From NCBI GenBank assembly GCA_002269645.1, contig NIVC01000886.1, forward strand, positions 186,001-250,000: a DNA stretch of 64,000 nucleotides, read 5' to 3'. This DNA is from Macrostomum lignano. Its lineage: Eukaryota. Below, piece by piece: positions 29,806-64,000 of the stretch (within the stretch, counting starts at the first letter, position 1; each line of letters opens with the position of its first letter). The translations under genes were made by a program, and so were the position numbers. The notes below the pieces were generated by a model. It ran no database searches and was not told the DNA's origin. It saw only the letters and a program-made list of their open reading frames with translations.

Positions 29806-30444
29806 GACAGTCAGACAGTGTCATGCACACACAGTCAGCACATGCAGGCTAGGTCATCTACCCACACGCATGATATCATAACTGGGTAAACTGATTTTCC
29901 AGAAGCTACTGAAATGAAGCGAGGGGTTTAGAGGAGATGATGAGCGGAGAGGAGAAGAGGAGAGAGAGAGAGAGAGAGAGGGGGAACGAGAGAGGCTCCT
30001 GGGAAGCGCTGAAGCAGTGTGGTTGGGTCACTTGAAATCAGTGTGTACTCACTATATGCACAACAGCCTCTAACCAACCTTCTTGGCTCTCCGGCTCTCG
30101 CATCTTCTTCACGTCTTTTTTTGTTGCCAACAGGGCAAACTGTTTCTAACGAAAAAATATGCACGAACAGGCATATAACACAAAGAATATATGCATATAC
30201 ACGCGAAACTTCCTATAGACCCGATGTCCAGCCACTTGTCGCAGCTGGGGTTAAACATGACACACTGCAGCTGGCAACTGGGACCGGCGTGGAGATTTCC
30301 AGATTCGTCTCCGCCTCCTCCAATCGCCGATCTGTCCCGCGAGCTTTAGTTGCTAGCCGAAAGCAGGAGGGAAGAAAGTTAAAAAGCAGCCCAAGGGCCC
30401 TCGCTCGGACAGTCTGTAACCGGACAAGTCGGACGGACACAAAA

Positions 30445-31957
30445 ATGTCTGGCTACTGGAACAAATTCGGCCAGGTGTTCCGCGCCACCAAGGCGCTCTC
30501 GTCGGCGTCGTTGAACCTGTTCGATGACGGAGCGGAAGATGGCGAGGATGGCATCGCCGGGAGCAGCGGCGACGGGGGTGCCAGCGAACCGCTGCCAGAC
30601 CTCGGCGGCATCACCGGCTGGATCGCCAAGCGCGCCTCGGTGGTGCTCAGCGACTGGGATCTCAACAGTGACGACGAAGACTACGACGAATCGGATGATA
30701 ACGAAGTCCGCAACGCCGACAGTCGAATCCCGTTCGAGATTCCCAGCCTGCGGAACGCCAGACAGGCTGGCAAGCTGCGCAGTCTGGAGGACCGGCTGCG
30801 AGACGGCGCCGCAGCCAGCGTCGCTGCATCCGCCGCTGCCGCCGCTGCCGCCGCCGCCGCCGCCTCCGCCACCTCAGCAGCTCCATCAGCTTCAACAGCC
30901 GCCTCAGCATCCGCTAGCATGGGCAGCAGCCCGACCCCGAGTCCGGCGCACCTGTCCCGCAGGCAGCAGCCAGCCAGACAACCGTCTCAGCGAGGCTCTT
31001 CGTTGAGGGAGACAAGTCGAAGACCGCTGCACTCTGTGCCGCCTCCGCTGCCGCCGCCGCCTCAGCTGCCGCCGCCGCCACAGCAACTTCAAAAATTAGA
31101 AGCTTCTAAAGCTTATGAGGCTCAAAGCCAGAAGCATGAACACCAGGCTCAGCCTGCGAATCAATCGTTACCATCGACTCAGCAACAGGAATGCACAGCT
31201 CAGCCACTTCAACCACCAACTCAGCAACCGGAGCCTATGACTCAGCAAAGTCAATCTCCAGCTCAAAAAACTGAGTCTCCTAGTCAGAAACTTCAAAAAC
31301 CCACTCAGCAATCTCCTCCGACTTCGCTACCGCAATCTCCGGTTCATCAATCTCAACCATCGACTCAGCAATCTGAACCATCGACTCAGCAATCTGAACC
31401 ATCGACTCAGCAATCTGAACCATCGACTCAGCAACCTGAATCATCGACTCAGCAATTTAAAACAACAAATCAGCAAACTCTTCGAAATCAGCAACTTCCA
31501 CCGAATCAGCAACATCAACTATCAGCTCAGCAACCTCAACAATCGACTCAACAACTTCGAACACCAAATCAGCAGCCTCAACCTTCGACTCAGCAACCTG
31601 AACCACAGACTCAGCAACCTCAACCTTCGACTCAGCAAACTGAACCAAATACTCAGCAACCTCAACCTTCGACTCAGCAACCTGAACCACAGACTCAGCA
31701 ATCTCAACCTTCGACTCAGCAACCTGAACCACAGACTCAGCAACCTCAAACGCAGCCCAAAAAACCACCTCAGCAGCGCCCACTGCCGCCGCCGCCCCGA
31801 CCGCCCAGACCGGTCTCCAAGCCGTTAGTCTTTGCGGGAACTCCAGCAGCAGTTGTCAAGGAAACCAACTCTGAGAGGAAGAACTCCGACTCGCCTGTTT
31901 CCAATAAGGATGGAGGTTTTCATTCAAAGAATGAAGAGACTGGAAACTCATCAGATG
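30445..31957 (+). CDS. Large Q/P-rich alternative exon of the dystrophin gene (first exon from ATG 30445, or cassette exon from acceptor 30133)
   Basis: ATG in caaaaATG context, GC-rich coding-like codons (MSGYWNKFGQVFRATKALSS...), about 504 codons, donor G|GTCAGT at 31958 in phase 1, the same phase as E5. The frame is also open upstream to a strong phase-1 acceptor (tcttttttt gttgccaacag, 30133). Confidence 0.65.
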
Positions 31958-32007
31958 GTCAGTATGGGCGCTTCTGGTTTAGGGTAGCTTTAGAGTAGAT
32001 TTTTGGG

Positions 32008-48464: not shown

Positions 48465-49009
48465 AACTCGGGTCACAAATATGTCTCTCCCCTATTCGCT
48501 TCAATAGAATTTTCCGTAACATACTCGTAACTTTTCTTAACCTTTATGAGCTGCTTGAGCTACAAAAAAATTCTTGGGTCATTCTTCGAGTCCTTGAGCA
48601 GAAATGTTTCTTGTATGAAAGAAAGGAAAGCTGTTTCATTGCTCTTCCTGCCTCTTCTCGAAGAGGGGTCTGTCGGATCCCCAAGTTTACTGCTTTACTC
48701 CATATTTCATTGCCAAGCCAAGGAGTTTGAGGTGAAGGCACATTGGCTTGCATTGCTGAGTTATGACTTTCCCAAGCAGCCTGTAACTTCAGCCCACAAA
48801 AATGGGGAAAAATTTCTGTTCGAAGGCAAACAGCTTACAGTATAGTAAAGGTTTTGGGGAGAAATATGAGAGAATTTATTATTAATGCGCTGAGTATTGC
48901 GGCCTCGAATGGGCTAACGAATATATGCTACCCTATATTTAGAGTGAAAGAACTCGATGATTTAAGTAGGTCCTGTTAGTCCTCTCTGATTAAAGAGACA
49001 GAATTATTT

Positions 49010-49742
49010 CTAGTTGGAGTGACAGAATTCTCTCTAATTGGAGTGACCGATTTCTCTCTAATCAGAGTGACGGAATTCTCCCTGATTAGAGTGACAGAAC
49101 TCTCTTGAACCAGAGTGACAGAATTCTATCTAATCAGAGTGACAGAATTCTCTCTAATCAGAGTTACAGAGTTCTATCTAATCAGAGTGACTGAACTCTA
49201 TCTAATCAGAGTGAGTGAACTCTGTCTAATCAGAGTGACAGAATTCTATCTAATCAGAGTGACTGAACTCTCTCTAACCAGAGTGACTGAACTCTCTCTA
49301 ACCAGAGTGACAGAATTCTCCCTGATTAGAGTGACAGAACTCTCTTGAACCAGAGTGACAGAATTCTATCTAATCAGAGTGACAGAACTCTCTCTAATCA
49401 GAGTGACAGAATTCTCTCTAATCAAAGTGACAGAACTCTCTCTAATCAGAGTGACAGAATTCTCTCTAATCAAAGTGACAGAACTCTCTCTAATTAGAGT
49501 GACAGAATTCTCTCTAATCAGAAAAGATTCCTTACTAATCAGAGTGACAGATTTTTCTCTAATCAGAGTGACAGAACTCTCTCTAAACAGAGTGACAGAA
49601 CTCTCTCTAACCAGAGTGACAGAACTCTCTCTAACCAGAGTGACAGAACTCTCTCTAATCAGAGTGACAGAACTCTCTAAACAGAGTGACAGAACTCTCT
49701 CTAACCAGAGTGACAGAACTCTCTCTAACCAGAGTGACAGAT
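49010..49742. repeat. 24-bp minisatellite (copy 1)
   Basis: Unit cagagtgacagaa(c/t)tctctctaat. Confidence 0.95.
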
Positions 49743-50348
49743 TTCAGCTGTAGATAAGATTAGCAAACTAATAGAACGCCAAAAGATGCTCAGTATAACT
49801 TTTAACTATTCGAAAACAACCAGAAAGTCAAACCCAAAAACCCTTCAATGCTCGCATACAAAGAACATCTAATCTAATATCAGAGAAGAATGAGAACAGA
49901 GCGGTCTCGGGGGGGTCAGCTGCAGGTCCGCCAACTCCTTGACTACTAGCTGGCTAACCTGATTAGCCGCTCAGATAGAAAATATAATTTCCATAGCGGC
50001 TGCTCCAGCGGGCATTTTTGGACGACAATAAAAGTACACAACCTTCTCCGTCTCTCTTCCCCCGTGTGCGGGGAGCAGGGTTGGGGCTCGCTCAGATCCG
50101 CAATAATATTATCGATCGGTGGACAACTTTGTCAAGCGTCTTGAAAGATCAAGAGAGCTGGAATGTACTTTTCGTTGAGCTCAGCCTGTGTGCGGGATAT
50201 TTTACTGCCAGCAGGGAGTCTGAGAGAAATTGAATTATCGAAGAAAAGTTGTGAAGGTCTCAACTTTTCTTTTACGTGTATGAGCTCATTTGAGCGGCTT
50301 TGTTTACAGAATGACTTTAATATTGGTCTCATATGTTCGGCTCTCCTT

Positions 50349-52831: not shown

Positions 52832-53790
52832 CCGCTCTCTCCATCCGCTCTCTCCATCCGCTCTCTCCATCCGCTCTCTCCATCCGCTCTCTCTCCATCC
52901 GGTCTATCCATCCGCTCTCTCCATCCGCTCTATCCATCCGCTCTCTCCATCCGCTCTCTCCATCCGCTCTCTCCATCCGCTCTCTCCATCCGCTCTCTCC
53001 ATCCGCTCTCTCCATCCGCTCTCTCCATCCGCTCTCTCCATCCGCTCTCTCCATCCGCTCTCTCCATCCGCTCTCTCCATCCGCTCTCTCCATCCGCTCT
53101 CTCCATCCGCTCTCTCCATCCGCTCTCTCCATCCGCTCTCTCCATCCGCTCTCTCCATCCGCTCTCTCCATCCGCTCTCTCCATCCGCTCTCTCCATCCG
53201 CTCTCTCCATCCGCTCTCTCCATCCGCTCTCTCCATCCGCTCTCTCCATCCGCTCTCTCCATCCGCTCTCTCCATCCGCTCTCTCCATCCGCTCTCTCCA
53301 TCCGCTCTCTCCATCCGCTCTCTCCATCCGCTCTCTCCATCCGCTCTCTCCATCCGCTCTCTCCATCCGCTCTCTCCAACCGCTCTCTCCATCCGCTCTC
53401 TCCATCCGCTCTCTCCATCCGCTCTCTCCATCCGCTCTCTCCATCCGCTCTCTCCATCCGCTCTCTCCATCCGCTCTCTCCATCCGCTCTCTCCATCCGC
53501 TCTCTCCATCCGCTCTCTCCATCCGCTCTCTCCATCCGCTCTCTCCATCCGCTCTCTCCATCCGCTCTCTCCATCCGCTCTCTCCATCCGCTCTCTCCAT
53601 CCGCTCTCTCCATCCGCTCTCTCCATCCGCTCTCTCCATCCGCTCTCTCCATCCGCTCTCTCCATCCGCTCTCTCCATCCGCTCTCTCCATCCGCTCTCT
53701 CCATCCGCTCTCTCCATCCGCTCTCTCCCCGGTTTTATTCTCAATTCCATCCGCTCTCTCCCTTTGTTCTTTCCTTCACTCTCATCCGCT
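52832..53790. repeat. 13-bp (CCATCCGCTCTCT)n array, block 3
   Basis: Direct reading. Confidence 0.97.
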
Positions 53791-54857
53791 CTCTCCTCCT
53801 CAACTGTAAGTGGCCAGGTGCGCAGGCAGCGGTGCATCAGCTGCAATCCTAAGGCTGAGTACTCACCAGATGCAGTGCTTTGCAGCCCAGACCAGCTACC
53901 CTAAATTGCTTGCCTACTACAAAGCACACCAAATCATGCAGGAAATCTCTGTCAAATATCAAAGACAGCTGATAAAAACTTCGTTGCTATGCTCATACCC
54001 TAAGATGCGCGCACACGCACTGTACTATAATTAAAGTCCAGAGATGAAACAGGCCTTAAGCTTGGAGGATATTGTGGATAGGGGATATGAACTTTTTTTT
54101 CAGTCTGCCATAGCAACTGCCAACATCGATTTTCTCCTTAGCTGTTGAAGAGGTGGAGAGCGAATGAGAGAGAGAGAGACGACGGGGAGAGAGGGGAGGG
54201 GAGAGAGGGGAGCAGAGATCAGTTATAGGACTGGTGGGAAAGACACGGTCAACACGGGAGGCCTGGGGTTCGCCATCCAGACCCATTTTCCGTCCCTGTC
54301 TCGGTGCTTGGATATACATATAGCTGGGCCTAGTTGGGAAAGTGCCGCCCACTGCCTAACCAGGACAGTAAGCGGAATTTCAACACAAAACTAAATGGCT
54401 TGATGGATTAGATTCCCGCCAGCAGTTTGCCAGCTCTGGATAAGAGAAAGTGCTTCTCTACGGACAAAAAATGCTGTTCGCAACAGTAGACAATCAATTG
54501 AAGACTTGTCGCATCCGATGGAGTTCGAAGGTCGCGAGTTCTGCACCGGCACTAAAATTAGCATCCTACTTCGAAGCATTCCGTTAGGCTAAATCATAGT
54601 TTTTTTAGCTTTAATTTATAGCAATAAATAAATACAAAGTTACATCAGTTAAATTATTTATAAATTATAGTTTATTAATAAAATATTTCGGAAAAAATAA
54701 AGACTAGTAGCAGAGTGGCTGCCGCACGGGAACAAAGACCGCCTCTGGCCAACAAGTGGCAGATAAATGCATGCGAGGAGATGCTGGACATCAGTCTCTG
54801 TCTGCACAGCCTGCTCATCTCGTTTGAGACCGTAGGTACTTTTCTGAGTTTGGGGGG

Positions 54858-55668
<811 letters not shown>

Positions 55669-56399
55669 CATAAAACTAACAGAGTGAACTATAAAATTGG
55701 AGAAAGAGCACCAGAATCCCAGATCTTCTTCCCATCGCTATAGTTGATCCTCTTATCAGATCAAATGTCCCCTTGGGGCCTTCTCTTCCCCTTTGCACCG
55801 ATCAATCTTATACTGCAGATTTGGAATCAGAAATATTTGCAAAGCATGTCCAGAAAGGCGAGCTCTGGGTGAAAGATCTGCACTGACCTCGTTTGAACCC
55901 CATGCAGTCGCGTACCTATACAGTGCCACCATAATATGCTTTTAAAACTTCCGCCCGCCAAGCGAAAGAGTGACTACGTACTTTTATTCCGAGAAAGTAT
56001 GCGATAAGTCGCTTTAATGTCATTCAGATTTTCACGCTTCGAATCTTTCTTTATCGAGGGAGGCCAAACCACACGAATGATGGATGTTGAATGCTACTGA
56101 AGTGAAATCCTAAAGCATCGAATTGAAAAACTGCCTTGGCAACTATTGGGAAGCTTAATAATGATCTGCTTGCGTTGCGTTGTTGCTTTGTAAAAAAAAT
56201 CTTCCAAAAGTTGCAACGAAATGCTTCTGAACTCTCTTGGTTGATGACACGACATGACAGGAGATTGACAGTAAATTCCACAACTTCTTGAGTAAATATC
56301 AATATATTCCCCGAGCGAATGTCTCTCCCCGATAAGAGTTGGTAGAACGTGTGCTCCGATCGTGTGGTCGGCTAACTTTACATCATAGACAAGATAAAC

Positions 56400-57885
56400 A
56401 AATAAGAGGAGAGGAAATAGAAGATGAGAGATGAGACAATAAGAGAGGAGAGGCAGGAAATGGAATGAGAAAAGAGATGAGAGAGAAAATATGATAAGAG
56501 AAGTGGGGAGCAAGGGATGTGATGGAAAGGGGTGGAAAGAAGAAAATGAGGAGAGGAAAGAGGAAGACAAGGGAGGGAAGAGAGAGGAGAGAGGGGAGAG
56601 AGAAGAGGGGAGAGAGAAGAGGGGAGAGAGAAGAGGGGAGAGAGAAGAGGGGAGAGAGAAGAGGGGAGAGAGAAGAGGGGAGAAAGAAGAGGGGAGAGAG
56701 AGGAGGGGAGAGAGAGGAGGGGAGAGAGAAGAGGGGAGAGAGAAGAGGGGAGGGAGAAGAGGGAGAGAGAAGAGGGGAGAGAGAAGAGGGGAGGGAGAAG
56801 AGGGGAGAGAGAAGAGGGGAGGGAGAAGAGGGGAGAGAGAAGAGGGGAGAGAGAAGAGGGGAGAGAGAAGAGGGGAGAGAGAAGAGGGGAGAGAGAAGAG
56901 GGGAGAGAGAAGAGGGGAGGGAGAAGAGGGGAGAGAGAAGAGGGGAGATGAAAGAGGGGAGAAAGAAGAAGGGAGAGAGAAGAGGGGAGAGAGAAGAGGG
57001 GAGAGAGAAGAGGGGAGAGAGAAGAGGGGAGAGAGAAGAGGGGAGAAAGAAGAGGGGAGAGAGAGGAGGGGAGAGAGAGGAGGGGAGAGAGAAGAGGGGA
57101 GAGAGAAGAGGGGAGGGAGAAGAGGGAGAGAGAAGAGGGGAGAGAGAAGAGGGGAGGGAGAAGAGGGGAGAGAGAAGAGGGGAGAGAGAAGAGGGGAGAG
57201 AGAAGAGGGGAGAGAGAAGAGGGGAGAGAGAAGAGGGGAGAGAGAAGAGGGGAGAGAGAAGAGGGGAGAGAGAAGAGGGGAGAGAGAAGAGGGGAGGGAG
57301 AAGAGGGGAGAGAGAAGAGGGGAGATGAAAGAGGGGAGAAAGAAGAGGGGAGAGAGAAGAGGGGAGAGAGAAGAGGGGAGAGAGAAGAGGGGAGAGAGAA
57401 GAGGGGAGGGAGAAGAGGGAGAGAGAAGAGGAGAGAGAGAAGAGGGGAGGGAGAAGAGGGGAGGGAGAATAGGGGAGAGAGAAGAGGGGAGAGAGAAGAG
57501 GGGAGAGAGAAGAGGGGAGAGAGAAGAGGGGAGAGAGAAGAGGGAAGAGAGAAGAGGGGAGAGAGAAGAGGGGAGAGAGAAGAGGGGAGAGAGAAGAGGG
57601 GAGAGAAGAGGGGAGAGAGAAGAGGGGAGAGAGAAGAGGGAGAGAGAAGAGGGGAGAGAGAAGAGGGGAGAGAGAAGAGGGGAGAGAGAAGAGGGGAGAG
57701 AGAAGAGGGGAGAGAGAAGAGGGGAGAGAGAAGAGGGGAGAGAGAAGAGGGGAGAGAGAAGAGGGAGAGAGAAGAGGGGAGAGAGAAGAGGGGAGAGAGA
57801 AGAGGGGAGAGAGAAGAGGGGAGAGAGAAGAGGGGAGAGAAGAGGGAGAGAGAAGAGGGGAGAGAAGAGGGGAGAGAGAAGAGTT
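56400..57885. repeat. Polypurine 14-15-bp array
   Basis: Unit gagagagaagaggg(g); almost no pyrimidines; ends about 120 nt before the E7 acceptor. Confidence 0.95.
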
Positions 57886-58005
57886 AATAAGAGACATAAG
57901 TATTGGTATTTTGAATTCTCAAAGGATTTGATGTCCCCATGTAGTCCCCATGTAAATAAGCATCAAACTCCAGCTCACAAAACTAGTTGGTCTCCCACCT
58001 CCCAG

Positions 58006-58674
58006 GACCTCGACGCCGAGAGTTTGCTGCACTCCGCCGAACTGGAGATCCTGTCGCATCGCTACGCCAACGTGTCCTGCGGCGGCACCAGTTCGGATCC
58101 TCGAGCTCGACTCCGGGCTCGGCTGGACAATGTCAACCAGCGCTGGCGACGGCTCGGCGAGCAGGCGGCGGAACTGCGCAGCCGGATTCGTCGCCAGGAG
58201 GACACCGCCTGGCAGGGCATGCTGGCCAGGCTGAAGAGTCTCAACGATTGGCTCGCCAGTCGAGACGCTGGACTTCGTCAGCGACAGCTCCTGCTGGGTG
58301 GCGACAGCGCCTCGCTACGCCAGCAGATCAGCGAGCACGAGACTCTTGTCGGCGAGTTGCAGTCGCGTCGAATCGAAGTTGAGCAGGCCCTGGAGCAGGG
58401 CGAGAGCTACTTCGGTCAGCAAGACTTCGCAGGTGGGCAGCAGCAGCAGCAGCAGCAGCAGCAACTCCCGCGGCCAGCCAGTGCGATGAGTCAGAGCGGG
58501 CACGAGTCCGGAGCTGAATCAGAGGACGCCGGAGGCGAAGGCGAAGACCAGCAGCAGCCGCAGCAGAAAAATCTGCGACTGACGCGACGGATTCGAAGGA
58601 ATTTGCATCAACTGAAACGGCGATGGCTGGAGTTGAACTTGCGAGTTAGAGAGTACCAGGAGAAGCTGCAGCAG
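58006..58674 (+). CDS. Dys: Dystrophin exon E7: R22-R23 (phase 0-0)
   Basis: Acceptor tctcccacctcccag and donor CAG|GTTGGT. RLDNVNQRW..L...AAELRSRI...W..MLARLKSLNDWL...LGGDSASLRQQ...HE...LTRRIRR...W parallels human RLDNMNFKWSELRKKSLNIRSHL...WL..KDDEL...IGGDFPAVQKQNDVH...VTRLLRK (recalled). Confidence 0.92.
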
Positions 58675-58694
58675 GTTGGTGGCCACACTTTGGG

Positions 58695-58755
58695 GTGATT
58701 AGATGTTATACTATGGTGTGATTAGATGTTATACTATGGTGTGATTAGATGTTAT
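58695..58755. repeat. 23-bp minisatellite truncated by the LTR insertion
   Basis: gtgattagatgttatactatggt at 58695 and 58718; the third copy (58741) stops after 15 nt at the LTR end. Confidence 0.9.
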
Positions 58756-59743
58756 TGTTGTACCTTTGGTTGTCCTGCTGTACAGCGCAGTGACTTAGGC
58801 TTCGTCCTCTCACTTAGAAGCCTTCTTAACTTTAGTAGCGTAGGTAGTGCTGCCACCAGTTCCTTCAGGTCTCGGCCTTCGGTGAGGTGAGCTTCCCGTC
58901 GGAACGAAATAATGAAGTCAACGAACACAGCACGACGTGCAGATTTGCAGCTCAACGTATAAGGCGTCTCGTCAGCAGTACCTGCCGGGCTAGGATGGTA
59001 GAGGGAGGGCTGAGTTAGCCTCTCGTAGACTTGGGTTGACTTGGTCGGGTTTCAGTCGGAGCAGTAGGAATAGAGTCAATACTCGCAAAGGCTCGGACAC
59101 TCGGGGATTTGGTCACACGCAGACGTAGAACTCGAGGTTGAACAGAAAGAAGACTCCTTGACGGAAACAAGGGGGAGAGAGCTCCTATTTATAGCCGGGA
59201 AACACCCACGCAGAAGACCTCGTGACTTGTTCTATTTTTAGAACTGACGTCACTCGAGAGTCTTGGGCAGGGTACAAGCGTGCGGAAGACCTCGTGACTT
59301 GTTCTATTTTTAGAACTGACGTCACTTGAGGTCCCCGGCCAGAGTACACGCGGCTGTGACTCAGTTGCTATTTTTAGCAACATGAGTCACTCCTCTCCTT
59401 AGAGAAGGGAGGGGTCCGAAAGCACGTGACTCACCCGGTAAACAGGGCCAACGAGTGCAGTAAACATGTTTACTGCACTTTAAGACTCAAAGAACGCAAG
59501 AACTGTCATGTGACTTGCTCACAAGACAGGGAAAACGGGACGGGAGCGAAACAGAGACAGCCCACAGCCGAGAGGCTGTGGGCTGAGAACGGAGACGCAG
59601 AAGGCCAGAACAGGCCACGGGCAGCAGCAGACAAACGAAAGGGAGGGGCGGGAAGCTGACCAGCGGCAGACAGCAACCCAGGGCGGAGGCGAGGGAACAG
59701 CTGACAAGTGCGACGCCTAACCATAAACTAGCGGCTCACTACA
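58756..59743 (-). repeat. 3' LTR (988 bp), TGTAGT...ACAACA
   Basis: On the minus strand it starts TGTAGTGAGC directly after the purine tract and ends GTACAACA (imperfect terminal inverted repeat). It has a TATA-like CTATAAATAG at 59194-59185, with tandem enhancer-like repeats upstream. Confidence 0.8.
59185..59433 (-). promoter_or_regulatory. LTR U3 promoter/enhancer: TATA, MEF2-consensus sites, CRE, AP-1 and E-box motifs
   Basis: CTATTTATAG 59185; CTATTTTTAG 59232, 59304, 59368; TGACGTCA 59245, 59317; TGACTCA/TGAGTCA 59357, 59383, 59427; CACGTG 59423. These are motif matches only; function is untested. Confidence 0.6.
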
Positions 59744-59755
59744 CTCTCCCCGTTC
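59744..59755 (-). other. Polypurine tract (plus-strand DNA primer)
   Basis: Minus strand GAACGGGGAGAG abuts the LTR TG. Confidence 0.8.
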
Positions 59756-60391
59756 AAATAAAGAGGCGGAGTGAAGGCGGAGCGCGCCTTTATTTAAAAA
59801 GGTAAACTGCAGAAAATAAAATTTTGATTGGCAAAGAGATGTTACACTGTCGGCGCAATGCACGATTTGGCTGGGTCAGGGCCTTGATTGACCCTAAACG
59901 CATTGCGGGGGCGTCGGCCCGCCTTGAGAAAGACGCCTAAATGCCGGGTTGCCTTCGAATAATAGCAGAGCCCGTGGGGGGAAGAAAAGGGGTCACCGAG
60001 CAGGCAACGGGGACATTAAAAGAGAAGGCCACTAAGGGCTACAAACGCGCGGCTGGGCGAGGGCCGTATTGCTGCCCAAAAATTGCTGGCAAGACACGGA
60101 AAACCGGAAAAGAAAGGGGGGCGCCGGCCCCATCATAAGAAAGAGGCGCCTAAATAGATAAGTAGGTGGGTTGCGGGAGTCAAGTGCAGAGCCCACAATT
60201 CGGCAAGAAAAAAAAAGGGGTCAAATGCGCCAGGAAGGCAAGAGGGACATGGCGATGGCGGGCAAGAGTCGCCCAAAACGCAGTGACAGGCGCGGACTGC
60301 ACCTGAACAAACGCAGGCAGCGCGGAAGAGGCAAGGGCGCTAAATTAGCGGGGCGCCAATTGTTTCACTAGGGCAGTTAGCAAGTCCGCAG

Positions 60392-63300
60392 TTATTCCGC
60401 TCCGGGTCCATCGCAGCGCCGTATGATGTCCGGTACCTCTGGAGTGCGGCCAGCGATGTGCTCCGCAATCAGCCGGGCTGCCGCTCGCGCCGCTTCAGGG
60501 TACGGCGGGTTGCGTAGCGTAGGTGCTGCCAGATGTGCGACCTCATCCATGAGACGCTGGCGGTCCTCGGCGCTAAGGGCTCTTACGGCGGCCCACCGAG
60601 GCCACGCGGCCAGGTTTGGTAGGATACCAAGCTGGGCTGCGGCTGTTAGTTGCTGGCCTAGGTAATAAATGGTTTCGATATAACGGGAGACCGCAGCTTG
60701 CACGTCCATCAGCGGAGGGTCCTGGCGCTGTGCCGCGGGCTCGGCGTCGGCCGCGTCCTGGTCGGCCGTCGGGGGCTCCGGTGAGCTGGGCGGGGCTGCC
60801 GTCGCCGGGTAATCGGGGCCGACGAGAGCCTGGCGGAGGTCCGTGGCCAGGCCCGCCCAATCGGTAGTTTCGAGAGGCGCGTCCGCCTGACAGGCGGCTT
60901 CCGCTGTCGTGGGCGCCTCCGGTGGGCTGGACTCCGGGGTGGTCGGGAGCCTTGGGCCGTCATCGGTGGGCGGCGTGGCTGGTTCCATGCGAAGCTCCGG
61001 CCCGGCGATCCTAAAATCAAAGGGGTCATTGGCAACTGCCGTTTCCGCTTTAGGCTTCTGGTCCTTAGTGAGTGCCTCCGGTTGTAGCGCTGGCTGTACA
61101 GCTGCCTGCACCGTTGCAGGCGCCTCGGGGACCGGGACCTCAGGTCGGGGCGGTTGTAGTTGTTGTCGCACCGCAGCAGTTCCTCGTGACACGGCCTTCT
61201 GGATGTCGACGTTATGTGCCACCTTCTCGCTCTTGAGGCGGCGCACGGGGTTGTCCGGCTGAGTGAGATCGATGAACATCGGTGGGGCAACCGCCGTGGC
61301 TCCGGTCGAGGCTTGCCCACTGGATGGCCGGGCGACGTCGCGAGCTTGATCGGTCTCGACTTGCATGCGGATTTCAGCCAGGCCGCGACTAACTCCGTCC
61401 TCGGGGTCTGTCTGGCGGCATCGAGCCCTGCGCCTCCGGCGCGATCGCCTGGACGGGCGCCTCTCAGGGGGCGGCGAACGGGTCCTAGATGGCGGTGACG
61501 CGAGCCGGCTGCTGGCCCGGGATCCAATTCGATGCTGGAGGGCGCTGCGGGGTGCATCCTGCGGACCGCCGAAAGGCTCGTACTGGCCAGCGGCCGCGCC
61601 AATTGGTGGCCCCCGGAAACTTGGGACCGAGGCGTCTCGGCGGCGAATCTGCCTTTGGCTTTCCTCGGAAGAGGAGCGCTCAGTGCGCTTCGTGGAGCGT
61701 TGCGAGTGCATTTCTGCGCTGAAATGCGTTTCAATTTGTGCGCGGATGCGGGCGGTGCGGCTATCATAAGTCTTAGCCCTAGGATTAATAATCAGCCTCT
61801 CAGGCTGCCTACGATTCCTAGCCGGCCTACCGGCATCTACCGTTCCTAATGACGCTTCCACCGGAGTGGTGCATAGCGACGGCCCAGGGGTCTGGACCAC
61901 AGAAAAAGCAGCACTGGGGGCAGGAGCAGAAACGGGCGGAAAAGAAACAACAGGCGTAGACGCATCAAGAACAGGCTCATGCAAATGACATTCACCATAC
62001 GGCACTGGCTCACGCCGAAGTGCACTTGCCTGGTTCGCTGGTGTCGTGACCGGTCCACCTCCTGGCTGCACCTCCGGGATCGCCAAAGGCCGGAAGTGCC
62101 ATCGGAGGGCCGGCCTTGCGTCGTAGCCGTCATCATCATCATCATCGGGGTCGTCCTGGTCGTCCTCGGGAATCGACGTCAGGGTCGCGGGTCCTGCGCC
62201 GTCGGGGACGTCGGGCGGTCGCCGACGTTTCTTCGGTTTGTCGACTTCAGGATCGGAAGTCCTCGTGTAATCGGCGTCAGGCACGAGTAGGAGGTTCCGG
62301 CGATGGACGATTAGTTCGTCTCGTCTGGCTCTCGGGTTGGGCAGTCTCCGTCGAATCTTGTAGACGACCTCGCCCTTGGGCTCGACGACTTCGTATAAGG
62401 CTTTGCGAGGTCGATGAAATTTCGCCGCTTCATCCGGTTCGAGCACCGGGTTGTTGAGGAAGACCAGATCGCCGGGTTGGAGCTTCTTGGCGGCGGGCAG
62501 GTTCGAGTAGTGCTCGTCTCGCAGTTGTTGGTGCAGGTGCAGGCGCTCCTTGGCCAGCTCAGTCGCCTCGTCCAGGCGACACTGGAAGTCTTTGACGTAG
62601 TCGGGCAGATCGGCGTACTCAGGCAGCTTCTTCAGCGCGTTGTCGATCGGGAGTCGGAAGTCACGGCCGAACACCAGGTAGTGAGGCGTGAAACCTGTCA
62701 CCGGGTGGACGCTGGAGCGGAGAGCCATCAGGCAGGCTGGGAGGTAGGTATCCCAGTCGTTGTGGTTGCGCTCAAGCAGGCAGGTGAGGACCTTCTTTAG
62801 TTGTTTGTTCAGATTCTCGACTTGTCCATTGGAAGCTGGGTTGTATGGTGTTGTTGTCGTGTGCCGAATGCCGAACAGGTCGCAGAACTTCTTGAAAGCT
62901 GTGCCGGTAAAGTTGGTGCCTTGGTCGGTGTGAATCCAGCATGGTACACCGAATTCGGGGATGAAGCGCTCTTGCAGAAGCTTGATGACTGTTTTGGCTT
63001 TCTGGTTTCTCATCGGGTAGGCGAATGGATACTTCGACGTCGCATCGCACAAGGTCAGGATGTAGCGGTTGCCGCTCTTGCTTTTCTGCGCGATTGGTCC
63101 TACTACATCACAGTGGATTCTACCCAGAACTTCGCAGACTGGGAAGCTCTGGACCGGAACTCTTTCTCGCCGTCGCGATTTACTTTCAAGGCAGGTGCGG
63201 CACTTACTGATGAAGGTCTTGGTAGCACGGGCTAATCCGGGTCTCCAGAACCGTTCTCGTAGCCGCAGTAACGTCTTCGTCTCGCCGAGGTGTCCACACA

Positions 63301-64000
63301 GTGGCGAACTGTGGAGCTCCTGGAGCACCTGGGCGTCAAGGGCCTCAGGCAGAACAACCTTTGGCGGCTGCTGGCCATCGGACAGGTCAATCAGCAGCAG
63401 GCCGTTGTCCTCCTGCAGGTTCTCGTAGTATCCGAGCAGGTTCCGCTGCTCCTTCGTCAGGCGCAACCGGGCGTCGAACTCAGGCTTCGGGGCTTCGTCC
63501 TTGACCAGGTTGAGCACGTAGCTAATGGCTCGGTCAGCGCGCTGGGCTTCAACGAACTGTTGGCGAGTCATCGGCAGTTGCAGAAAATCAGTGAGCACAG
63601 CGCGGCATGGCTGAGGGGTCATGACTACCGCAGTCTCCGCTTTAATGGCTCCAGGTCGATCACACAGCACCGTCTTGTCGGCGTCAGGATTAGGTCGCTC
63701 CGAGGGACTTTGTCTCACAACGTCGGCGTACGTCCGTTGATCTCGAATCGAAGTTCTCTTCATCGCTCTCATGACAGAAGATTCCGCAGATGGAGCAGCG
63801 CGCATGCCTCCACTGCATAGCACAGGCGACTCTTGGCTGTAGGGCGGGACGCAACACGTGAAGCACGCCTCGTCGCAGGCAGCCGTAGCCGTCGGCTCGG
63901 TAGTCATCAAAATTGGGTGAGTCTTCTCCTGCACTGGGCGGTGTCGCAAAGGGGGACTCGACTTTCCGCACAGGCGATGAGCAGCTGTCTGTTGGCCCGG
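60392..64000 (-). CDS. Pol C-terminal part: integrase (HHCC zinc finger, DDE core, GPY/F-like region) plus a long C-terminal extension
   Basis: The frame is open to the window edge. LHSSPLCGHLG...KCRTC (H at 63313); RIHCDVVGP (D 63109), IHTDQGTNF (D 62926), SNGQVENLNK (E 62818). Stop at 60392-60394. Confidence 0.92.
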   Translation of the reverse strand, partial: PGQQTAAHRLCGKSSPPLRHRPVQEKTHPILMTTEPTATAACDEACFTCCVPPYSQESPVLCSGGMRAAPSAESSVMRAMKRTSIRDQRTYADVVRQSPSERPNPDADKTVLCDRPGAIKAETAVVMTPQPCRAVLTDFLQLPMTRQQFVEAQRADRAISYVLNLVKDEAPKPEFDARLRLTKEQRNLLGYYENLQEDNGLLLIDLSDGQQPPKVVLPEALDAQVLQELHSSPLCGHLGETKTLLRLRERFWRPGLARATKTFISKCRTCLESKSRRRERVPVQSFPVCEVLGRIHCDVVGPIAQKSKSGNRYILTLCDATSKYPFAYPMRNQKAKTVIKLLQERFIPEFGVPCWIHTDQGTNFTGTAFKKFCDLFGIRHTTTTPYNPASNGQVENLNKQLKKVLTCLLERNHNDWDTYLPACLMALRSSVHPVTGFTPHYLVFGRDFRLPIDNALKKLPEYADLPDYVKDFQCRLDEATELAKERLHLHQQLRDEHYSNLPAAKKLQPGDLVFLNNPVLEPDEAAKFHRPRKALYEVVEPKGEVVYKIRRRLPNPRARRDELIVHRRNLLLVPDADYTRTSDPEVDKPKKRRRPPDVPDGAGPATLTSIPEDDQDDPDDDDDDGYDARPALRWHFRPLAIPEVQPGGGPVTTPANQASALRREPVPYGECHLHEPVLDASTPVVSFPPVSAPAPSAAFSVVQTPGPSLCTTPVEASLGTVDAGRPARNRRQPERLIINPRAKTYDSRTARIRAQIETHFSAEMHSQRSTKRTERSSSEESQRQIRRRDASVPSFRGPPIGAAAGQYEPFGGPQDAPRSALQHRIGSRASSRLASPPSRTRSPPPERRPSRRSRRRRRARCRQTDPEDGVSRGLAEIRMQVETDQARDVARPSSGQASTGATAVAPPMFIDLTQPDNPVRRLKSEKVAHNVDIQKAVSRGTAAVRQQLQPPRPEVPVPEAPATVQAAVQPALQPEALTKDQKPKAETAVANDPFDFRIAGPELRMEPATPPTDDGPRLPTTPESSPPEAPTTAEAACQADAPLETTDWAGLATDLRQALVGPDYPATAAPPSSPEPPTADQDAADAEPAAQRQDPPLMDVQAAVSRYIETIYYLGQQLTAAAQLGILPNLAAWPRWAAVRALSAEDRQRLMDEVAHLAAPTLRNPPYPEAARAAARLIAEHIAGRTPEVPDIIRRCDGPGAE

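What the first reader, a model, noticed from the sequence alone, without database searches (positions are those of the whole stretch)
59185..59433. LTR U3 packed with MEF2, CRE and AP-1 motifs, inserted antisense next to an exon of a muscle gene
Seen: four perfect CTA(A/T)4TAG matches (59185, overlapping the TATA box; 59232; 59304; 59368), two TGACGTCA, three TGA(C/G)TCA and one CACGTG in about 250 bp, partly arising from a 72-bp direct repeat. Established: CTA(A/T)4TAG is the MEF2 consensus, and MEF2 drives muscle and neuronal genes. Inference: the element may be muscle- or activity-expressed. Its 3' LTR would fire toward lower coordinates, antisense through E7 only 81 nt beyond the LTR end, or act as an enhancer for dystrophin internal promoters.
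Basis: partly seen in the sequence, partly recalled or inferred. Interest (0 to 1): 0.7.

Follow-up and report, generated by a model that had tools for sequence, protein, structure and literature searches.

The report
Stress-type enhancer in flatworm retrotransposon LTR
A jumping gene inserted backwards in a flatworm's dystrophin gene carries a dense cluster of predicted binding sites for signal- and starvation-responsive transcription factors, probably to switch itself on under stress; any effect on dystrophin is untested.

Summary
The motifs are real and at the stated coordinates. They lie in U3 of the 988-bp 3' LTR (58756-59743, minus strand) of a Ty3/gypsy element; a sister copy's gene model carries this R/U5 sequence at both ends. 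The host exon matches Macrostomum lignano dystrophin at 100%. The four MEF2 sites are not independent: three are copies of one dyad module (bZIP-MEF2-bZIP) and the fourth is the TATA box. Two features suggest selection: 42 nt around the motifs are identical between the 72-bp repeats while the spacer diverged (P about 4e-4), and CRE is exchanged for AP-1 in the third copy. The cluster extends to 59514, with a forkhead/FoxO dimer site, a single Fox site and two MiT/TFE-type boxes (found post hoc), and has no CArG or heat-shock element. Best reading: a signal/starvation-responsive enhancer for the element's own transcription, not a muscle-specific one. A candidate Dp116-like dystrophin first exon lies 4.4 kb away, so an effect on the host is possible. 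No binding, expression, antisense RNA or host effect was shown. New variant of a known kind; interest 0.42.

The parts
58756..59743 (-). 3' LTR, 988 bp, TGTAG...CAACA (low end could be 58759)
   Evidence: follows a PPT; interrupts a 23-bp tandem repeat at 58755/58756; R/U5 stretch 58857-58988 is present at both ends of sister gene model P0003 (38 of 44 aa identical at its N-terminus)
59744..59751 (-). polypurine tract GGGGAGAG
   Evidence: sequence
59185..59194 (-). TATA box (59193-59187) that also matches the MEF2 consensus; predicted start near 59162-59159
   Evidence: start position inferred from TATA spacing
59213..59284 (-). 72-bp repeat copy 1: CRE 59245-59252, MEF2 59232-59241, GTCAC half-site
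59285..59352 (-). 72-bp repeat copy 2: CRE 59317-59324, MEF2 59304-59313, GTCAC half-site; 42 nt identical to copy 1
59356..59390 (-). third, diverged dyad module: AP-1 59383-59389, MEF2 59368-59377, AP-1 59357-59363; near-perfect inverted repeat
   Evidence: (fold z -6.3)
59423..59433 (.). overlapping E-box CACGTG (GTCACGTG on minus) and AP-1
   Evidence: motif per PMC8034652 and PMC6199276
   Evidence: DIV2 sequence identical to the oligo core in PMC8034652
59505..59514 (+).
   Evidence: M-box per PMC6355916
59558..59585 (.). 12-bp-arm inverted repeat in U3 with no motif of the panel
   Evidence: (z -6.9)
59739..59812 (-). predicted 3' UTR hairpin that buries an AATAAA (59794-59789) just before the PPT
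   Evidence: (z -2.68; 0 of 200 shuffles)
60392..64000 (-). open pol frame (1202 aa, 5' open): H2C2 zinc finger, integrase core, long low-complexity tail; no env ORF of 120 aa or more between it and the LTR
   Evidence: (rve E 2.7e-16; Integrase_H2C2 E 1.3e-14)
58006..58674 (+). dystrophin exon 'E7' (669 nt, phase 0/0): end of one spectrin repeat plus most of the next (R22/R23 by position; numbering recalled)
54781..54831 (+). coding part of a candidate alternative first exon of a Dp116-like short dystrophin; TATA-like at 54659, strict MEF2 site at 54552
   Evidence: 17 of 17 aa identical to the N-terminus of P0001; GT donor at 54832; in-frame stops upstream

Best explanation
The cluster is the U3 enhancer-promoter of a Ty3/gypsy retrotransposon, shaped for the element's own transcription. 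Shown: its anatomy, its growth by duplication of one symmetric bZIP-MEF2-bZIP module, and uneven conservation that favours the motif block. Inferred: Mef2 and CREB/ATF/AP-1 dimers bind the modules and relay calcium/MAPK signals (wounding, excitation). FoxO and a TFEB-like factor bind the upstream sites and relay starvation. Together they activate the TATA at 59193, mainly in the 5' LTR copy, giving bursts of element RNA when stem cells are mobilised; that is the route to inheritance in a regenerating worm. Its place in dystrophin is most likely incidental, with little effect on the host gene.
For: Motif excess survives de-duplication (MEF2, AP-1, Fox, DIV2 each 0 of 2000 shuffles; MiT P 0.0015; CRE P 0.0035). 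All hits of the 38-pattern panel fall in U3 and none in R-U5. One 350-nt window has 13 sites of 5 classes; the best window outside the LTR has 2. Between the 72-bp copies 42 nt are identical and 9 of 10 mismatches are in the 26-nt spacer (P 4e-4; 0.004-0.01 if gaps reduce them to 7-8 events). The third module keeps the MEF2 10-mer and replaces CRE with AP-1. A flatworm Mef2 binds this 10-mer. FoxO1 binds DIV2 cooperatively. [quoted passage not shown] In this species, LTR families are shown to have captured another stress element (HSE), and the one reporter tested was ubiquitous except in gonads (PMC12801592).
Against: No binding, expression or reporter data. The Fox and MiT patterns were added after I read the sequence. 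MiT and CRE miss a Bonferroni threshold of 0.0013 for 38 patterns. U3 is rich in spaced inverted repeats (14 against 3.7 expected), including one with no motif, and all these motifs are palindromic. The 42-nt identity could come from template switching or conversion instead of selection. Only one copy of U3 was available. Motif specificities come from human, fly, nematode and schistosome proteins; forkhead sites are not FoxO-specific and MEF2 is also a muscle and neuron factor.
Confidence: 0.5

Rival explanations
1. Tissue-specific enhancer: the LTR is constitutively active in muscle and/or neurons through MEF2.
For: Three copies of CTAAAAATAG, the commonest MEF2 site and the one in fly Actin57B; a MEF2-like TATA; a CAGTTG E-box abuts the 59368 site. 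Insertion into a muscle gene could reflect open chromatin there.
Against: No CArG; CAGSTG not enriched. Ten of the 13 sites counted in the best window are non-MEF2 or the TATA. No env frame for cell-to-cell spread, so muscle-only activity would not be inherited (inference). One insertion says nothing about target preference.
Confidence: 0.2
2. The motifs are by-products of hairpin-forming or palindrome-generating DNA and tandem duplication; any selected feature is RNA/DNA structure, not factor binding.
For: Every module folds as a hairpin (z -2.9 to -6.3). Spaced inverted repeats are enriched (0 of 300 shuffles reached 14). The 59558-59585 hairpin carries no panel motif. Symmetry extends beyond the motif cores.
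Against: Even given a hairpin, a MEF2 centre has a rough chance of 6e-4, a MEF2 centre plus TGAC arm 4e-5, and a DIV2 centre 1.5e-5 per palindrome (composition-based, post hoc). The extra base that makes a CRE breaks the dyad pairing yet gives a second known bZIP site.
Confidence: 0.12
3. The insertion acts on dystrophin: as an enhancer of the Dp116-like internal promoter 4.4-4.7 kb away, or by antisense read-out from the 3' LTR across E7.
For: Candidate first exon at 54781-54831 spliced to E7 in P0001. P0001 is collinear with dystrophin only from about residue 2730-2760 onward. A promoter in the orthologous intron is ancient (PMC1790709). No AATAAA/ATTAAA on the minus strand inside the LTR or between it and 56013, so read-through would cross E7.
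Against: No RNA data. 3' LTRs are often occluded by read-through from the 5' LTR and silenced (recalled). Proximal 2 kb sufficed for the promoters tested in this worm. The candidate promoter has its own MEF2 site at 54552. The assembly is redundant, so other copies may lack the insertion. A gene model of the sister copy uses a donor in U5 (58856), which could splice read-through RNA past E7 (prediction only).
Confidence: 0.12
4. The main host effect is passive: sense-strand poly(A) signals in the element truncate some dystrophin pre-mRNA after E7.
For: AATAAA at 59757, 59815, 60664 and ATTAAA at 60015 on the + strand.
Against: P0001 continues past E7 into WW, EF-hand and ZZ domains, though possibly from another copy. 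Nothing tested.
Confidence: 0.06

Closest known systems
HSE-containing LTR families of M. lignano (Mlig-id115, id36, id55, id38; PMC12801592, read parts 1-3 of 6 of the text, Table S1, searches of supplements) and ONSEN
   Same: Ty3/gypsy LTR in the same species with clustered host stress-response elements upstream of TATA
   Different: 0 canonical HSEs here. Its MEF2, CRE and DIV2 strings and LTR start were not found in that paper's supplements (line wraps and cut cells can hide matches). Those families are validated; this one is not.
HTLV-1 U3 (PMC4374383, passages)
   Same: Repeated CRE units plus MEF2 sites, one overlapping TATA; MEF2 and CREB act together on an LTR
   Different: HTLV-1 MEF2 sites are imperfect (7 of 10) and need Tax. 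Here they are perfect, sit inside each repeat and are joined by forkhead and MiT sites. That paper judged its TATA-overlapping site unlikely to function.
Arc SARE enhancer (PMC3561385, abstract and passages)
   Same: CRE and MEF2 sites within 100 bp
   Different: SARE is defined by CREB + MEF2 + SRF; no CArG here. It is a host enhancer in mammals.
Tandem 72-75-bp viral enhancer repeats (SV40, murine leukaemia virus; recalled, no call)
   Same: Enhancer multiplied by direct duplication just upstream of TATA
   Different: Different factors; the equal length is coincidence as far as shown.
Dp116 / G-utrophin / SuDp98 / Dp205 internal promoter (PMC1790709, passages)
   Same: Short first exon joined in phase to the exon holding the last helix of a repeat, then two full repeats and the C-terminal domains
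   Different: First-exon sequence not compared; the 5' end and the link to upstream exons are not shown here.

Membership tests
Ty3/gypsy (Ty3/Mdg4) LTR retrotransposon | terminal direct repeats with TG..CA ends | tested here: met
   TG..CA ends; the R/U5 piece occurs at both ends of sister model P0003; this copy's own 5' LTR is outside the window
Ty3/gypsy (Ty3/Mdg4) LTR retrotransposon | PPT directly before the 3' LTR | tested here: met
   59744-59751
Ty3/gypsy (Ty3/Mdg4) LTR retrotransposon | integrase last in pol (RT-RH-INT order), H2C2 + rve | tested here: met
   integrase is the last recognised domain; relatives P0004 (57%) and P0005 (43%) carry RT and RNase H domains with the integrase match near their C-terminal end
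Ty3/gypsy (Ty3/Mdg4) LTR retrotransposon | PBS, target-site duplication, RT phylogeny to clade (Mag, CsRN1, Gmr1/Osvaldo) | not testable with these tools
   these parts lie beyond position 64000; no labelled reference set
HSE-type heat-inducible LTR | canonical nGAAnnTTCnnGAAn in the LTR | tested here: not met
   0 matches for both forms
SARE-type activity enhancer | CRE and MEF2 sites within 100 bp | tested here: met
   3 bp apart in both 72-bp copies
SARE-type activity enhancer | SRF site (CArG) | tested here: not met
   0 in the LTR
SARE-type activity enhancer | induction by neuronal activity | not testable with these tools
   no expression data
Muscle-specific MEF2 enhancer | consensus MEF2 sites | tested here: met
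Muscle-specific MEF2 enhancer | partner myogenic E-box or CArG sites | tested here: inconclusive
   CAGSTG 1 (P 0.48), CArG 0, TEAD 0; one CAGTTG beside the 59368 site
Muscle-specific MEF2 enhancer | muscle-restricted activity | not testable with these tools
   no data
Dystrophin (host gene) | spectrin repeats followed by WW, EF-hand and ZZ domains | tested here: met
   P0001 versus PDB 9c3c_D E 2.3e-147; E7 224 of 224 aa identical to P0001
Dp116-like internal isoform | own first exon in the intron before the exon-56 equivalent | tested here: inconclusive
   position and phase fit; 5' end not mapped, trans-splicing not excluded
Dp116-like internal isoform | a longer isoform of the same gene upstream | tested here: inconclusive
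   upstream exon-like ORFs look spectrin-like but gave only Pfam E 0.069 for 1 of 4 tested, no dystrophin hit in PDB for 2 of 2, and no annotated protein for 1 of 1 (lengths up to 2000 aa)

The most novel reading that the evidence does not exclude
A living Ty3/gypsy family has assembled an immediate-early-type enhancer (MEF2+CRE/AP-1, as in Arc's SARE but without SRF) together with a FoxO/TFEB starvation module. It fires in wounded or starved flatworms to reach the germline through regenerating stem cells, and this copy imposes that inducibility on an ancient Dp116-like dystrophin promoter 4.4 kb away or sends antisense RNA through E7.
Probability: 0.1. Interest if true: 0.78.

Novelty: new variant of a known kind. 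Interest (0 to 1): 0.42.

Why it matters
LTRs that capture host stress elements are known, including heat-shock elements in this worm. A wound- or starvation-coupled LTR would add a second stress route and bear on how retrotransposons reach the germline in animals that rebuild gonads from somatic stem cells. It is directly testable with the reporter method already published for this species, and could yield an inducible promoter. The candidate short dystrophin isoform would extend the ancient Dp116-intron promoter to flatworms. If the tests are negative, this is an ordinary U3 enhancer in an ordinary intronic insertion.

Tried and rejected
Other DNA copies of the LTR: none elsewhere in the window; 0 exact matches of a 25-nt module pattern in genome contigs (prokaryotic genomes, so expected). 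Viral and metagenome contig collections stayed unchecked, and cluster membership of P0001-P0003 (names, isoforms, copy counts) stayed unknown. Motif conservation across copies is therefore untested. Rfam: 0 matches to E 1 in 53700-64000. The bacterial promoter scan is not meaningful here. A longer dystrophin isoform was not found. An 80-aa query of the start of E7 gave only weak, unrelated PDB hits, so the exact exon-56 junction was inferred from coordinates, not aligned. My first clustering test used a wrong run length of 46 nt; one search corrects it to 42 nt and P 4e-4, and notebook entry 1 still has the old figure. Heat-shock reading rejected (no HSE). Dystrophin or Mlig025191 was not found by name in the heat-stress DE table; family identity could not be matched to that table. 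PMC8439047 (passages) held nothing on MEF2 sites in LTRs. No structure or complex prediction was run, as none bears on the question.

Full report
Observation. All listed motifs are present at the stated positions: strict MEF2 10-mers at 59185, 59232, 59304, 59368; CRE at 59245, 59317; AP-1 at 59357, 59383, 59427; CACGTG at 59423. None of 20,000 dinucleotide shuffles of the 249-nt stretch reached the MEF2, CRE or AP-1 counts. CACGTG alone had P 0.065. The 72-bp direct repeat spans 59213-59352.

The element. A minus-strand frame of 1202 aa (60392-64000, open at the window edge) carries integrase H2C2 and rve domains. The best 4 of 104 hits were 43-99% identical over the matched part; three are named Macrostomum lignano proteins and one is unnamed. 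A 648-nt 3' UTR, a PPT (59744-59751) and a 988-bp LTR, TGTAG...CAACA (59743-58756), follow. The LTR end interrupts a 23-bp tandem repeat. The unnamed gene model P0003 translates the 58857-58988 stretch both before its gag-like region and after its integrase tail. That is independent evidence that this is a terminal repeat. The clade was not determined.

The host. The exon 58006-58674 is 224 of 224 aa identical to P0001, annotated as M. lignano BOX15_Mlig025191g1, dystrophin. P0001 matches solved dystrophin at E 2.3e-147 and is collinear with it from about residue 2730-2760 to the end. Its first 17 residues map to 54781-54831, which has a GT donor, upstream in-frame stops, a TATA-like 7-mer at 54659 and a strict MEF2 site at 54552. 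[quoted passage not shown] The arrangement here fits a Dp116-like isoform. This is inconclusive: the 5' end is unmapped, 38.8% of genes in this species are trans-spliced (PMC5730564 passage), and the upstream exon-like ORFs were not confirmed as dystrophin.

Anatomy of U3. Read in the element's sense, three MEF2 sites share one symmetric module: bZIP site, CTAAAAATAG, bZIP site or half-site. The two 72-bp copies have CRE and a half-site. The third has AP-1 on both sides and is a diverged homologue (z 3.8 and 4.8; the other 7 of 10 module pairs had z 2.3 or less). The fourth site is the TATA box. So there are about two independent origins, not four. Between the 72-bp copies, 42 consecutive nt covering the motifs are identical and 9 of 10 mismatches lie in the spacer (P 4e-4; 0.004-0.01 for 7-8 events, which replaces a mis-set test). 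This fits purifying selection but also homogenisation by template switching.

Of 38 recalled patterns tested on U3 with one repeat copy left out, 8 had P below 0.01 (two MEF2 forms, CRE, AP-1, MiT-type, Fox, DIV2, TATA). SP1 had 0.034, and HSE, CArG, TEAD, NF-kB, ETS, GATA and others had no site. R-U5 had no hit for any pattern. The Fox and MiT patterns were added after I read the sequence. The 14-mer at 59460-59473 is identical to the DIV2 site that FOXO1, FOXO3, FOXM1 and FOXI1 bind as dimers (PMC8034652 passages). 59506-59513 is the M-box used in MITF assays (PMC6355916 passages). DAF-16 and HLH-30 co-occupy stress promoters carrying such motifs (PMC6199276 passages). Schistosome Mef2 binds CTAAAAATAG in EMSA (PMC3250504 passages). 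The best 350-nt window holds 13 sites of 5 classes, against 2 for the best window outside the LTR; much of that background is simple repeat.

Counter-evidence. U3 is unusually rich in spaced inverted repeats (14 against 3.7), each module folds as a hairpin, and one hairpin has no motif. Palindromic motifs are easier to make in such DNA, though rough per-hairpin odds of these exact centres remain 6e-4 to 1.5e-5. Only one U3 copy was seen. No expression or binding data were available.

Mechanism. Most likely (0.5) this is a signal- and starvation-responsive enhancer serving the element itself. The sequence steps are shown; factor identity, inducibility and cell type are inferred. Precedent in this species: four HSE-bearing LTR families are heat-induced, HSE mutation abolished one reporter's response, and the authors note that regeneration of gonads from somatic stem cells could pass on insertions (PMC12801592, parts 1-3 of 6 read). 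Rivals: resting muscle/neuron enhancer (0.2), structural by-product (0.12), action on dystrophin by enhancer or antisense RNA (0.12), premature sense polyadenylation (0.06). For antisense: no AATAAA/ATTAAA lies on the minus strand from the LTR down to 56013, so any read-out would cross E7. Whether the 3' LTR fires is unknown; promoter occlusion and silencing (recalled) argue against it.

Literature. I found no description of MEF2, CRE, AP-1 or FoxO sites in M. lignano LTRs. Searches: 14 papers on the species and LTR retrotransposons (listing), 64 on MEF2 and LTRs of which 25 were listed, 3 on the species and dystrophin (listing), 0 mentions of MEF2, FoxO, AP-1 or CREB in PMC12801592 and no motif strings in its supplements (wrapped or cut sequences may hide them). 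The earlier classification paper that it cites was not seen, nor any bioRxiv supplement. MEF2 with CRE in an LTR is known from HTLV-1 (PMC4374383 passages), and MEF2+CRE+SRF defines SARE (PMC3561385 passages), whose SRF criterion is not met here.

Verdict. Observation confirmed and extended; interpretation partly supported. New variant of a known kind: an unusually clean, multi-factor U3 enhancer. Interest 0.42; the bold reading has probability 0.1 and interest 0.78.

Noticed in passing
window 54552-54831 (+): Candidate alternative first exon of a Dp116-like short dystrophin, with its own strict MEF2 site (54552) and TATA-like sequence (54659); possibly a flatworm instance of the ancient internal promoter.
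   Followed up: partly
window 59739-59812 (-): The element's only nearby AATAAA lies before the PPT, buried in a predicted hairpin (z -2.68). The LTR has no AATAAA, only a variant ACTAAA at 58836. It may be a switch between full-length and shorter 3' ends.
   Followed up: partly
window about 62250-60392 (-): Integrase carries a roughly 620-aa Pro/Ala/Arg-rich C-terminal tail without Pfam match. The sister model P0003 is 87-99% identical in the integrase stretches but 61% or less in the tail, suggesting fast evolution or recombination.
   Followed up: no
window 58857-58856 (-): The gene model of the sister copy leaves the LTR at this GT at both ends, hinting at a splice donor in U5 (prediction only).
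   Followed up: no
window 59757, 59815, 60015, 60664 (+): Poly(A) hexamers in the dystrophin sense direction inside the element.
   Followed up: no
window about 48500-50000 and 2484 nt downstream: Segment of about 1.5 kb or more duplicated at 100% identity in the intron (includes the MEF2 matches at 48933 and 51417); recent tandem duplication or assembly artefact.
   Followed up: partly
window 30013-31998 (+): 660-aa open frame with Asp/Ser-rich and Gln/Pro-repeat segments and no convincing Pfam hit; may be a large exon or another internal start of the host gene.
   Followed up: no
window 59558-59585: Strong 12-bp-arm inverted repeat in U3 with no motif from the panel.
   Followed up: no
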